Assembly: GCF_964355755.1 (NCBI RefSeq)
Contig: NC_092678.1
Coordinates: forward strand, 6,030,422 to 6,094,421
DNA length: 64,000 bases
Direction: 5' to 3'
From: Antedon mediterranea
Taxonomy: Eukaryota; Animalia; Echinodermata
A model generated the notes under the pieces. That model was not told the DNA's origin, did not search any database, and saw only the letters and a list, made by a program, of their open reading frames with translations. Positions 11,599-63,869 of the stretch are shown here, in pieces. The translations under genes were made by a program, and so were the position numbers. Position 1 is the stretch's first letter. Each line of letters opens with the position of its first letter.

Positions 11599-12785
11599 CC
11601 AGTGTGAGAATTGCAGGAGAAGAAATCGTATGATGTTTCAATGAACTTTACTTGAGTTAAAGTTGAAAGGATATAGATGGTTACCGATACATGGTCTTTA
11701 AAAAAAAAAAATGATGAATGAACAGTGCGATACAGTGACTGGTTACCATGGGAACATATGTAGATAGGGAGGCCTATTCAGTAGAACACCTAAATGTTTT
11801 ATAATATTATAACCCAAATTCAATGCACACCCTGATTGAGGGGATATTTTCTAATGAAGAGAACAAGAGGTAATATATTTATTTGTTCTTTATACCGGGT
11901 AACCTCTTCAGTAAAAAAAAAACTGTTCTCCCAGAGATCCACGTACACAAAATTATGTCTTATGTTTTACAGAAACACTGTTGGGTCCCGAAGGTATCTC
12001 TATAATAGAGATTCTAAATAATACCTAAAGTTACTAACATAAGTTACTAGTATACAAATAAAAGTTATTACCGGAATTATCAGGTACAGGCGGTAGCACA
12101 TCAGGACTTTCACAAGAAAGCGTCTGTTTTTTTAAAGTCGCCTCGCGTTCGGCACCGGTTCCATCAAATATGCAAAGATAAGTGCTATTCTCATTTACAG
12201 GTGGCAAATTTGTGAATTCAAATTTGAGCTAAAAAGATAAAAATTATCATTTGATTGATTAATTTCATATCACATGTTATTCAGTATTTAGTTTTATAAC
12301 ATAGATTCGTGTCATTTGATTAGAGGATTTTAGGTCACATGTTATTCAATAACTACTCCATTGAACTTTTACATCATCAACGGTGCAATTTCGTTATTTG
12401 CAAGTGCAATTCTATTATATGAAAGTGCAATCCTGTTATATGCAATTCCATTATGCAAGTGCAATTCCGTTATATGCAAGTGCAATTTTGTAATATGCCC
12501 ATTGAATTTCGTTATATGCGTTTTCATTCTTGTTACAATGCGTATTTTGGTACACACGACACAAGGCCATACTCGACTTTACATTGGTATCGGTTACTGG
12601 CAGGACAGGACATGGTAACCATGTACCATCCAGGTCAATAGATACTGGCTAATAACATTATTTAACTTACCGTTGATGCACCATCATTGTACGGTACATT
12701 TGGAGGTGAAACGCCATCAATTGCAATACAAATGTTATCGTAAGCAAGCCACGCACCCGACGAACAAGTATCGTATGTGCTACAC
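11599..12785 (-). CDS. Three stalk exons (PSI1 end / IPT) closely homologous to gene B exons 5-7
   Basis: [48 protein letters not shown]...[45 protein letters not shown]; splice sites intact. Confidence 0.85.
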
Positions 12786-15700
12786 CTGAAAGATCAAATT
12801 ATTATTTACATAAATATTTAATATTTAATAAGGTTAATTGAATACTATAAAACTTTGCAATAAACTTTTATTAGGGTAATTTTTAACCAGATATAAATGA
12901 TGACGTTTTCACCGAGCAATCAACTCTAGGCTAGCCATACTTGAGTTCCTACCACCAATAACTCATTAAACAACACATTAAGCTCTACAGACCATTTTAT
13001 ATAAATTATAACAATTTTTGTTATAATTTTCAAATTAAACATAATGTATGACAGGAACATTAGTTGAGTTGAGGTAATTTCCCGATTGATCGTAATCAAA
13101 ACGGTACTGGGTATGGTCTACTAGTTTTTCTGCTCCCAACAAGTACATCCATTCATAGAAGCTTTGATGAAGTAAGCCTACCTGGTGGTGGCCATAGAAC
13201 GGTCCCGAGATAACGACTATACTTCGGCTTTAGTCGATAGAAGATTGAATAAATTGTTAGAGATAGAGTATACGATGTTATGATTATTTGTATATATGTG
13301 ATTTGTTCTTTTTATTCAAATGATGTTATGTATTTAATAAATTTGTTATATCAATTAATAAAATTATCGTAGATTGCATATTATGCGATAAATATTATTT
13401 AATAAATTGTTGATATATTATTATTATTATATTAATAAAAAGATATTTGTTAGTATAAATTAAAAATATAGATATAAGGAAGAAAAGCAAAGAGATTATG
13501 GAGCGGCTGTACCAGAACATACAACATTAAGTATTGTAAAGTTAATATATAAAACATTTAGGCGATCTTGTCAAAGGTCAAGCGCCTTCAGCCTGCCACG
13601 TTTCGATATTCAATATTATTGAACTTGACCTTTTAATTTCTATTTTAAAAGTAAATCATGATATCAGTTTATTAGGTGTCTTTTGATTTATCATCATCTT
13701 AAAGCTGTCTACATTATCAAATTAATTTGACAAAAAAAGTGTGATATGGCCAAAAATGGTAGTGATATGACATCACCACTGTCCATATATATGGCTTAAT
13801 TCATTGTGCGCATGATGCGACGGTGGTTTCAATGACAATATGTATGTCTGAGGCAGACAATTTTTCCAATATGCCTTATATCCAATTTTGAACTTTATCC
13901 TTGCTTGTCTTGCATATAATAACCAAAGTTTATTTTAGTGACTAAATATCCGGTATTAAGTAGAATTTGCATTTGTACATTGTTTATTTAAATTATTCTG
14001 TAAATAGAATCTTGTAATTGCTAATGTAATTTCTTCATACCAGCAAGCCAATTATTTGGCTACCCCACTTATTACATCATTCTTGATGGAATGATGGTAC
14101 GGTATATAAAAAGATTAGCTATTGTCATATGACATGCATGTATGACTAAAAATATGATAATTATTTAGCAATAAAGTACATTAGTTACAGTAGCATACAG
14201 TAGCTGGTTAATGGTGATCTAATTTTATTATTTGTTTGTCTATTATGTTTACACTGAGGTCAAAGTTCGTATTGAGATTAAACTAGGGCTGAAAATGAAA
14301 GGCACTATTAATACAGAATATCACAAGTAAATAAGAGTTGCCGCAAATACGCCTCGCATTTTGGTGGCAATTTGTATTCAATGCGGGGATCAAGAGTGGC
14401 AACTTGGGGAAAGGTGACAATGTTTCACGTATTCAATTCAATTCAACTTTATTTCAGACAAACTGTCCATATGAAACATATAAATACAATAAAAAATAAT
14501 ACAAAGCATTATGTGACAACCGTCATGGAGAGAGGACTAATAATTATTTGTTGACATATAGTGCCTCTTAAAATACATGTGGATTATGTTTTGGGATTTA
14601 TGGGATGTAGACTGTAGACATTATTATATTATTGATTACTATAGTTTATAAAACAACACATTATTATGGCTATACTGATAGAAAAAGTAAAAGTATACAT
14701 GAGATTATATACAGAAGTTCTATCCATTTTCTATGCAACTTTGAATCTTTTATTATTATAGTACAAATTCATCAACAATTCGCGAAATACACAAAAGTAA
14801 AATTTAAATTTAAACGCAAATGTGATGACGTGTAGAATATACTCATACTGCAATTTTGTATGGTTTTACACGTTTATAGTAACTCTATAAAAAACACAGG
14901 GACACTTTTGTTTATGTTCTATTCACAACTCGCCAATTTTCAGTGGCGTCAACAAGTTCACCATTTCCCTCAATTATGATATCGATAACTACTGTATACT
15001 ACAGTATAGCATTTTCACTCAAGGTCACACATCTTAAACGGGGGTGACAGTGACGCTATAACTATGTTTGAAGTGTCACATATAAATATCTTATAATCTC
15101 GGAAATAACAATTCTTAAAATGTCAATTAGGAAAGTCGATTACGATTTAAGAATATAGATTAAGAGTTAGTATAGATTTAGAATATAGATTGTCAGATTT
15201 GAGTGCCATATATAATTTAGTAGACATATAGTGGAAATCGGAAATTCTTACACTTCAAAATAGATAAATCTTATGATATTACAAGAACTCAAAGATAGTC
15301 CTCAATATTATGTATGACAGTGCAAGTATTACTGTAGTTCTTGCATAGTAAATTACTAGCTGTTAAAGATGCTCAACATTGAAGTATCATCATAGGCAAA
15401 TTCTGTAATACAGTGTAACATATATCACATGTGATGCCTCTATCATAGGAAAAAAGCCTAAAAACTGTACTGTAGGCATCACATGTGTATACATGTTACA
15501 CTGTATTACAGAATTTGCTAGGATAAACTACATAATACACTCTTGATGTACCTTCTTTTACAAAGCGTGTCACTGTTTCAAAAGAAAACCTTCCAAATTA
15601 ATCATTAATATATGTAGTCTGCACGATCGCAATAATCCTTTAAAAAATATTATAACGGATAATAAAAATCCTTTGAAACAAGTCAATTTCCTTCACGGCT

Positions 15701-62800: not shown

Positions 62801-63869
62801 CATACTAAAAATGAGAAAGCATAAGTATTATCATTTATAATTTTGTTTCATATTTCAATGTATAGGCCTAAGTGCAATTTCCAGAGACCTAGCAGCTCTA
62901 TTTTTCAAAATTGTCTTAGCTCCACTGCAACCATAGTGGGCTGTTCCACATTTACAATTTTGCATAACATTCATGTACAATAAAAGTATAAATTATGTGG
63001 CTAAATGGTGTATTTTGTCCTATCATTAAACAGACCATGGTTGAAAAGACATCAAGCTAGAAGGATTAAAAAAGCAATGTTTTATGATTTCCTTTTCCCG
63101 CTAATCAATTTTAATACACAACAATTGCACAGAAAAGTTAGTTTTCAAATATCTTATACTTGGAAAAGAAGGTGTTTCATCATAGTTTTTTTTTTTAAAA
63201 TTGATTATACTCTACTAAAATTATATTTATATGATAGGGAAATTCGTTTTGTACTTTGTTCTAATAGGGGTGGGGGATCAAGATTTCCACATCCCCCTGT
63301 GAAAGGTTGCCGAAACCGGCTTTTTGAGAGTAATACTAAAATTACTAACTTTATTTACTTTTGGCGATGGACAAGAAGGCAGTTGTCCTGCTAAACATCT
63401 GGACTCCAACACACATTTCCCTGTATTGCACCATGTACAGTTGTATTCAGGTGGAGTAGTTAGTGGAGACCAACAACCACTGCAATTAGGGAGGCCCACT
63501 GAACAATCGTACAAAGTTACTAAAAAAATAATTTAACATTTTGATATTTACCGCAATTTTAATATATTTAATTAAAATTAGTAATTTGATAATGCTATTA
63601 GATAAAAAAATGAATACTAGGATAAAATGCAATTTTTATTTTATCAAGGAGTTATGTAATCAATGAAATAATGATTTAATCAATAAATATTGAAATTATA
63701 AAAATGATTTTTCTTTATTGCTAGGAATTAATGTTATATTCTGAAAGTGTATGTGATAGAATCAAATAGAAAATAAAATACCTGTCCAACTGGAATCAAT
63801 GTTGTTAATGTTATTCCATGCAACTTTAACAGTTATGTTTTTCTCCTGTGACATCCCATCAAGTACATA
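59844..63869 (-). CDS. Gene A (5' part outside window): plexin-like paralogue with IPT/PSI exons; appears to end before any TM
   Basis: Exons 63782-63869, 63350-63519, 62717-62804, 61807-61976, 60456-60613, 59844-59988, homologous to gene B exons 11,12,11,12,13,14; the last exon lacks the donor found in B and reads ...VGTLEYVSKEKYCEVGKCCLR-stop. Confidence 0.75.
60639..61499 (-). mobile_element. Helentron/DINE-1-like non-autonomous element (second subfamily)
   Basis: Same architecture, inverted; shared body motifs acagtgtagaataggtg.aattacgggacccac and caactggccatatgat; terminal stem-loop taggtgatcattt...aaatgatcaccta; (AAG)n tract. Confidence 0.6.
62085..62515. mobile_element. Insertion with internal inverted repeat in a gene A intron
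   Basis: acaaatatttactgggct...agcccagtaaatatttgt hairpin; absent from the paralogous intron 63520-63781. Confidence 0.5.

What the first reader, a model, noticed from the sequence alone, without database searches (positions are those of the whole stretch)
11599..63869. Cluster of GAP-less plexin-like receptors with swappable, diversifying Sema heads (variable head / shared stalk)
Seen: at least three plexin-like genes in tandem, four Sema head copies (C, B1, B2, one pseudo-fragment), a conserved upstream block before each intact head, and stalk exons far more similar between genes than the heads are. Every intact head unit ends at the same phase-2 intron inside PSI1, so any head can join any exon-5 stalk in frame. 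Established: canonical plexins are a small conserved family with a large cytoplasmic Rap/R-Ras GAP region, and the Sema domain is the ligand-binding surface. Inference: a lineage-specific, rapidly diversifying recognition family (immune, allorecognition or neuronal identity), organised like clustered protocadherin or UGT1 variable/constant loci or like birth-and-death immune clusters.
Basis: partly seen in the sequence, partly recalled or inferred. Interest (0 to 1): 0.85.

Follow-up and report, generated by a model that had tools for sequence, protein, structure and literature searches.

The report
Three-parent mosaic plexin lacking GAP tail
In a feather star's cluster of plexin (cell-guidance receptor) genes, one gene with an intact reading frame is stitched together from pieces of three different family members and lacks the intracellular signalling domain, so it likely acts as a decoy or damper of semaphorin signals; its neighbour is, by its database model, an ordinary full-length plexin.

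Summary
The window is from the crinoid Antedon mediterranea (named protein records match at 97-100%). The plexin-like genes, four Sema head copies, upstream block and phase-2 intron are real. 'GAP-less cluster' is wrong: gene C runs off the window and its RefSeq model carries the GAP domain, as do two more paralogues on a contig of the same length; all three have Anneissia orthologues. The real oddity is gene B1: an intact 20-exon, 1257-codon reading frame whose head comes from paralogue alpha (90% identical), exons 5-7 from gene C (75%) and the remaining stalk from paralogue beta (62%). Trees and AU tests reject a single parent. It appears to keep a C-type promoter block and ends 17 residues after the membrane. 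So heads were swapped in evolution, by recombination at homologous introns. No mRNA joining several heads to one stalk was seen, and no B1 transcript was shown. Heads are under purifying selection overall (dN/dS 0.37) with two variable loops. Best reading: a young chimeric decoy receptor in a birth-and-death cluster. Echinoderm plexin expansion and short-tailed sponge plexins are published. New variant of a known kind; moderate interest.

The parts
59847..63869 (-). Gene A, 3' part (RefSeq model XP_071961389/P0001): beta-type stalk exons 11-12 duplicated (63869-63782, 63519-63350; 62804-62717, 61976-61807), exons 13-14; reads into a stop, no TM exon; its alpha-type head lies beyond the window
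57008..57457 (-). Alpha-type Sema head fragment: no start, frameshift near 57367, ends at about residue 148; flanked by an 87% direct repeat (57783-57430 / 56997-56674)
56102..56361 (-). B2 upstream block: 14-mer motif at 56361-56348, conserved block, candidate GC splice donor; probable promoter and non-coding first exon (inferred)
52929..55414 (-). B2 head: 4 intact coding exons (55414-54332, 53810-53610, 53479-53348, 53041-52929), ends phase 2, no stalk of its own
52279..52538 (-). B1 upstream block, identical to that of B2, 70% like that of gene C
48260..51591 (-). B1 exons 1-4: signal peptide, Sema, first half of PSI1; alpha (P0002) type; 17-codon in-frame insertion in exon 1
45450..47032 (-). 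B1 exons 5-7 (47032-46918, 46283-46121, 45537-45450): second half of PSI1, IPT1, start of PSI2; gamma (gene C) type; bounded by phase-2 introns on both sides
31269..45048 (-). B1 exons 8-20: PSI2 to IPT6, TM helix, 17-residue tail, stop; beta (P0006) type; no GAP
36050..38530 (+). LINE-type endonuclease/reverse transcriptase frame (827 codons stop to stop) inside B1 intron 14
29488..29795 (-). Gene C upstream block: 14-mer motif 29795-29782, conserved block, consensus GT donor at about 29487; probable promoter and non-coding first exon (inferred)
23583..25992 (-). Gene C head, 3 coding exons (25992-24958, 24476-24270, 23821-23583), ends phase 2
11599..12785 (-). Gene C exons matching B1 exons 5-7 (12785-12671, 12228-12072, 11695-11599); the gene continues beyond position 1 to a GAP domain in RefSeq model XP_071961387

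Best explanation
B1 is a mosaic plexin gene with an intact reading frame whose head, middle and stalk derive from three different full-length paralogues; it likely arose by unequal recombination at homologous phase-2 introns after the Antedon-Anneissia split and, if expressed, likely works as a non-signalling decoy or damper. Likely order (inferred from identity ranks 62, 75, 90%): a copy of the beta stalk lost its cytoplasmic exons; a gamma front end (promoter to exon 7) was joined at the PSI2 intron; the gamma head exons were then replaced by an alpha head, leaving the gamma promoter block in front and gamma exons 5-7 behind. B2, the fragment and gene A are further copies from the same process. 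The protein would bind the ligands of the alpha plexin, or variants of them, possibly in cells set by a gamma-type promoter; lacking a GAP it could not take part in cytoplasmic dimer activation, so it would soak up semaphorin or pair unproductively with full-length plexins. Shown: mosaic ancestry, intact frame, no GAP. Inferred: order of events, promoter. Untested: expression, binding, decoy action.
For: All 19 B1 introns are GT-AG and the frame is open for 1257 codons. Identity switches at exon borders: exons 1-4 88-97% to P0002; exons 5-7 84/57/93% to C; exons 8-19 42-88% to P0006. Segment trees place B1 with P0002 (100/99), C (99/98) and P0006 (100/99); all 6 of 6 alternative pairings rejected, p-AU at most 0.00065. 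Each parent has a colinear Anneissia orthologue, so the parents are not the chimeras. Both junction PSI domains keep 8 cysteines. AlphaFold of P0004 (B1 without its first 167 residues): mean pLDDT 85.6, best match the Plexin A1 full ectodomain, E 8.9e-68. Exons are conserved where introns no longer align (0 of 7 intron pairs); dN/dS 0.37 B1/B2 head, 0.42 (0.23-0.76) B1/C exons 5-7, 0.40-0.62 B1/A stalk. One 2.1-kb DNA contig bridges exon 7 (gamma) to exons 8-9 (beta) in runs X2 and X3 (one sample); a second sample holds B1 intron pieces. Plexin activation needs cytoplasmic dimerisation (PMC4980550, passages).
Against: No B1 splice joint is among the 15 of 116 joints shown; the deeply covered alpha-head contig in the one probable RNA run differs from B1 at 71 of 999 letters and leaves B1 six bases before the ATG, so it comes from another copy or allele. 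Pairwise dN/dS below 1 may reflect constraint on the partner lineage or before the fusion; for B1/A exons 11-14 the interval reaches 1.0. The RefSeq model of B1 starts at an internal Met and that of B2 is partial. B1 exon 1 carries a 17-residue insertion absent from the five other alpha heads aligned. Gene order and DNA of P0002 and P0006 were not available. No listed contig bridges exon 4 to exon 5. Decoy action rests on mechanism known from vertebrate plexins, not on a test.
Confidence: 0.58

Rival explanations
1. B1, B2, A and the fragment are recombination debris between functional plexin genes: young, weakly or not expressed, and decaying.
For: A lacks a TM and has duplicated exons, one head is a frameshifted fragment, B2 has no stalk; LINE insertions in B1 introns; no B1 transcript shown; partial RefSeq models.
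Against: B1 stalk is only 62% like P0006 and its introns no longer align with those of C or A, yet 20 exons keep frame, splice sites and cysteines: hard to keep without selection. Short-tailed plexin models recur in Anneissia (P0003), hemichordates (P0028, P0034) and a sea cucumber (P0059).
Confidence: 0.22
2. A small variable/constant locus: B2 and B1 each have their own promoter and head and splice alternatively onto one stalk, as in clustered protocadherins, giving receptors of different specificity.
For: B2 is intact, has its own upstream block and a phase-2 donor compatible with exon 5. B1 and B2 differ by 11% in protein while flanks are identical (1 of 1154 upstream bases, 0 of 292 in exon 4 and intron 4). 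The upstream 14-mer resembles part of a CTCF site (recalled consensus). Variable residues cluster at 81-85 and 351-359 (permutation p 0.019, window chosen after viewing).
Against: Only two intact heads; each has four coding exons and an acceptor before the ATG, so a B2 transcript meets the B1 exon 1 acceptor first (that join is in frame and would give a double head). Shared phase follows from homologous introns; the shared block follows from common descent. No such splice seen.
Confidence: 0.12
3. The B2/B1 tandem is an assembly artefact: two alleles of one head laid in a row. The B1 mosaic would stand, B2 would be its allele.
For: Identical flanks around a divergent middle. B1-specific letters lie on contigs of about 160 depth against 250-300 for stalk introns in run X5, and the shared upstream contig is not twice as deep (the tool warns that depth is no copy number).
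Against: In 2 of 3 DNA runs the shared upstream contig begins exactly at 52745, the first base common to both copies, as expected if two different upstream contexts exist. 8.8% exon 1 divergence is far above the roughly 1% seen in intron contigs of a second sample. Recent unequal crossing-over or conversion gives the same identity pattern.
Confidence: 0.08

Closest known systems
Echinoderm plexin expansion (Acanthaster: Plexin-A1 to A3, B1 to B8; PMC6374515, sections 7, 8, 10 and passages read)
   Same: Several lineage-specific plexin paralogues with the Sema-(PSI-IPT)x3-IPTx3-TM layout; C, P0002 and P0006 are of this kind.
   Different: The parts read describe no multi-parent mosaic, no repeated copying of one head and no crinoid data.
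Amphimedon Plexin-A1 to A4 with short intracellular parts (PMC6374515, section 8)
   Same: Full ectodomain, TM, no GAP.
   Different: Independent origin; no mosaic ancestry described there.
Met and Met-LP receptors (PMC6374515, passages)
   Same: Plexin ectodomain detached from the GAP.
   Different: They carry a tyrosine kinase; B1 has a 17-residue tail.
Clustered protocadherin and UGT1 variable/constant loci (recalled)
   Same: Tandem 5' units, each with a related promoter element, in frame with downstream exons.
   Different: There many single-exon variable units are shown to splice to shared constant exons; here two four-exon heads, no splice shown, and most genes keep their own stalk and GAP.
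Chimeric genes made by unequal recombination in tandem clusters (recalled general mechanism)
   Same: Switches at homologous introns, partial copies, fragments.
   Different: Three parents that are only about 25-35% alike in protein, and an apparent head cassette exchange inside a C-type frame.

Membership tests
Plexin receptor | N-terminal Sema domain | tested here: met
   Pfam Sema in C and P0004 above cut-off; alpha head matches Plexin-A4, E 1e-64
Plexin receptor | Three PSI-IPT units plus three IPT, single TM | tested here: met
   Pfam, AlphaFold and Foldseek over about 1110 columns to 5l56
Plexin receptor | Cytoplasmic GAP with RBD insert: gene B1 | tested here: not met
   Stop 17 residues after TM; no GAP match in six frames of the window
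Plexin receptor | Cytoplasmic GAP with RBD insert: gene C | tested here: met
   PF08337 and PF20170 on P0008; exons are outside the window, so this rests on the RefSeq model and its colinear Anneissia orthologue P0015
Plexin receptor | Binds a semaphorin | not testable with these tools
   No crinoid semaphorin was in hand
Protocadherin/UGT1-type variable-constant locus (features recalled) | Each variable unit is one first exon | tested here: not met
   Heads have 3-4 coding exons and an acceptor before the ATG
Protocadherin/UGT1-type variable-constant locus (features recalled) | Several variable units splice to one constant region in mRNA | tested here: inconclusive
   Only contigs of one probable RNA run; no such joint among those shown
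Protocadherin/UGT1-type variable-constant locus (features recalled) | Conserved promoter element before each unit, bound by CTCF | tested here: inconclusive
   14-mer before all 3 intact heads; CTCF likeness is recalled and partial; binding untested
Birth-and-death recognition cluster (features recalled) | Young copies, fragments, chimeras | tested here: met
   A, fragment, B2, B1
Birth-and-death recognition cluster (features recalled) | dN/dS above 1 on the recognition domain | tested here: not met
   0.37 over 509 codons; exon 1 0.44 (0.28-0.67); site models not run; local hot spots
Birth-and-death recognition cluster (features recalled) | No one-to-one orthologues in related species | tested here: not met
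   Alpha, beta and gamma each pair with Anneissia genes; B1 itself had no mosaic counterpart among the hits
Birth-and-death recognition cluster (features recalled) | Expression in immune cells, high polymorphism | not testable with these tools
   Two samples, contigs only

The most novel reading that the evidence does not exclude
Crinoids run a head-exchange system on plexins: the alpha Sema head, hypervariable in a loop that faces the ligand, is copied as a cassette behind C-type promoters with a CTCF-like element and spliced by promoter choice onto a shared GAP-less stalk, giving cell- or individual-specific decoy receptors, a small protocadherin-like code built from plexin parts.
Probability: 0.1. 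Interest if true: 0.8.

Novelty: new variant of a known kind. Interest (0 to 1): 0.45.

Why it matters
Plexins are thought of as a conservative family. A natural, apparently selected gene built from three old paralogues shows that the ectodomain can be recombined at the PSI introns and still fold, and that a ligand-binding head can be moved to another promoter and cut from its signalling tail. It gives a ready test of how specificity, autoinhibition and expression are split among plexin modules, and of whether short-tailed plexins in echinoderms and hemichordates act as decoys. It is not evidence of a new immune system.

Tried and rejected
No whole genome was held, so no genome-wide count, gene order or DNA of P0001, P0002, P0006. 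Run search: no RNA holder on record; X1 is only guessed to be RNA. At exon 10 the X1 contigs shown carried only non-B1 letters at two places; contigs drop rare forms, so this is no evidence. Mosaic test among four alpha heads: 12 informative sites, runs p 0.19, no support for conversion tracts. Overlap of variable sites between Antedon and Anneissia: 13 of 37, Fisher p 0.056, not significant. GAP exons in the window: none. A bacterial promoter scan was irrelevant. That the 81-85 loop contacts semaphorin is recalled; it aligns with the Plexin-A4 C-Y-P-P loop, but the primary structure paper was not held and passages of PMC4308982 and PMC7327498 did not name it. Searches for prior description: plexin+crinoid (2 papers), plexin+echinoderm+expansion (12), 'chimeric plexin' (3 counted, 2 listed, both mammalian by title), (4), Antedon+gene family+immune (8): no listing concerned this locus; supplements were not read. 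A search for cytoplasm-deleted dominant-negative plexins gave 1 unrelated paper, so that precedent is recalled. Earlier scan notes: none. Rejected: 'shared stalk for all heads' and 'GAP-less family'.
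Full report
Source. The window holds minus-strand Sema, PSI and IPT exons. Protein searches gave named records that match it: P0004 (XP_071960878) is the B1 gene from an internal Met onward, P0008 (XP_071961387) is gene C, P0046 (XP_071961388) a partial B2, P0001 (XP_071961389) the upstream gene A, all Antedon mediterranea.

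Observation. Two points fail. Gene C is not GAP-less: the window holds its first 617 of 1813 residues, the next exon is not in positions 1-11598, and the model carries PF08337 and PF20170; it has a colinear Anneissia orthologue, P0015. Two further GAP-bearing paralogues lie on a contig of the same length, 26,055,566 bases: P0002 (here alpha) and P0006 (beta); C is gamma. And stalks are not generally more alike than heads: that is true only of B1 versus C exons 5-7.

B1 is a three-parent mosaic. Fitting exons to P0004 plus exon 1 gives 20 exons, 19 of 19 GT-AG introns and 1257 codons. Identity to alpha/gamma/beta is 90/24/25% over exons 1-4, 31/75/30% over exons 5-7 and 30/29/62% over exons 8-20. 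In nine-row trees B1 pairs with alpha (100/99), gamma (99/98) and beta (100/99) in turn, each pair sister to the Anneissia orthologues, and all 6 alternative pairings are rejected (p-AU 0.00065 or less; larger sets agree; B2 and P0016 lack some segments and gene A aligns poorly in the middle one). Since each parent is colinear with its Anneissia orthologue, B1 is the derived gene and postdates that split. Both switches fall at phase-2 introns inside PSI domains, and both hybrid PSI domains keep 8 cysteines. An AlphaFold model of P0004 has mean pLDDT 85.6 (pTM 0.52) and matches the Plexin A1 ectodomain over about 1110 columns. After the TM helix the frame stops in 17 residues; a GAP profile finds nothing in the window. 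Gene A is a similar mosaic (alpha head, a gamma-type exon 5 piece, beta stalk) that ends without a TM.

Upstream block. It is 70% identical between C and B1/B2, is preceded by a 14-mer found exactly three times in the window (0 in 100 shuffles), and ends at a splice-donor-like site; an acceptor precedes each ATG. It lacks the depth of a high-copy repeat. I read it as a promoter and non-coding first exon. Because B heads are alpha-type but the block and exons 5-7 are shared with C, the simplest history is that an alpha head replaced a gamma head inside a gamma front end. This is inferred; whether alpha has the block is unknown. The motif's likeness to part of a CTCF site is recalled.

Selection. 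Nei-Gojobori dN/dS is 0.37 (0.25-0.53) for B1/B2 heads, 0.42 (0.23-0.76) for B1/C exons 5-7, 0.40 (0.21-0.77) and 0.62 (0.38-1.00) for B1 against the two gene A copies, while 0 of 7 intron pairs align. This points to constraint, perhaps relaxed, not to overall positive selection. Four Antedon alpha heads are 87-90% alike; 95 of 484 sites vary, with clusters at residues 81-85 and 351-359 (p 0.019, post hoc). In codons 81-85 all four variable codons among B1, B2 and the fragment change the residue. That loop aligns with the Plexin-A4 C-Y-P-P loop; its role in ligand binding is recalled. Anneissia has separately multiplied the alpha head (P0003, P0005, P0026), and P0003 lacks a GAP and has a tyrosine-rich tail.

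Reads. Five runs hold the stretch, none on record as RNA. Four were laid as contigs on 42100-52745. X2, X3 and X5 are one sample and may be the window's own, so they are not independent. In X2 and X3 one contig runs from exon 7 to exon 9, lacking a 384-base insert of the window, so the gamma-beta join exists in DNA, probably on a second haplotype. In X3 and X5 the upstream contig starts exactly where B1 and B2 begin to match, as a true duplication would give; depth is equivocal. X1, a second sample, holds B1 intron pieces at depth 3-6 (4 of 5 intron or upstream pieces plus one more within about 1%, one at 6%) and exon contigs at 40-110. Its deep alpha-head contig differs from B1 at 71 of 999 letters, shares 12 of 27 listed head letters with B2 and leaves B1 just before the ATG. 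So some alpha head appears transcribed, but it is not this B1 allele, and no B1 splice joint is among the 15 of 116 joints shown.

Mechanism. Plexin A signalling needs cytoplasmic dimerisation, and Sema blades 1-3 contact PSI2-IPT2 of a neighbour for autoinhibition (PMC4980550, passages). B1 has an alpha head, a beta PSI2-IPT2 and no GAP; if made, it would bind ligand or neighbours without signalling. I put this decoy reading at 0.58, decaying debris at 0.22, a protocadherin-like promoter choice between B2 and B1 at 0.12, and a false tandem of B2 at 0.08.

Known context. Plexin expansion in starfish and sea urchin, and four short-tailed sponge plexins, are described in PMC6374515 (sections 7, 8, 10, passages). 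A plexin-A4-like protein is reported in starfish coelomocytes (PMC13409769, passages), which keeps a role in immune-cell migration possible but says nothing on this locus. Among 115 fetched proteins with a Sema match, 69 had a GAP, 21 no late TM (mostly fragments), and 25 a TM without GAP, many of them with kinase-like tails; short or non-kinase tails include hemichordate and sea cucumber models, some of which may be incomplete. The paper searches listed nothing on a natural multi-parent plexin or this cluster; subscription journals and supplements were not seen.

Verdict. The cluster is a known kind; the GAP-less variable/constant claim is mostly not supported; the three-parent, GAP-less B1 with repeated copying of one head is a real and, as far as searched, undescribed variant. 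Interest 0.45.

Noticed in passing
window 36050-38888 (+): LINE-type element with an open 827-codon endonuclease/RT frame inside B1 intron 14; a decayed piece of a similar element at 49328-49758 in B1 intron 1, absent from B2.
   Followed up: partly
window 31269-31283 (-): B1 ends in E-T-T-L, which fits a class I PDZ-binding end (recalled consensus); could be chance read-through.
   Followed up: no
window 52929 to 51607 (-): A splice from B2 exon 4 to the acceptor before B1 exon 1 would be in frame, giving two Sema heads with an internal signal peptide.
   Followed up: partly
window 51120-51180 (-): 51-base in-frame insertion in B1 exon 1, absent from the other alpha heads and from the X1 contig.
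   Followed up: partly
P0003 (Anneissia, XP_033114995): Independent GAP-less alpha plexin model with a 138-residue tyrosine-rich tail; similar tyrosine-rich tails in hemichordate P0028 and P0034.
   Followed up: partly
P0002 head tree: The crinoid alpha gene has a Plexin-A-like stalk but a very long-branched Sema head.
   Followed up: no
run X1 on window 48260-51597: The transcribed-looking alpha head of a second sample matches none of B1, B2, P0001, P0002 fully at the sites shown; alpha heads may be highly polymorphic.
   Followed up: partly
window 2536-3245, 23933-24196, 33036-34406, 58024-58520: Minisatellite arrays with periods 20, 21, 34 and 19.
   Followed up: no
window 43945-44327: 384-base insert present in the window and absent from contigs of runs X2 and X3: an insertion polymorphism in B1 intron 8.
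   Followed up: no
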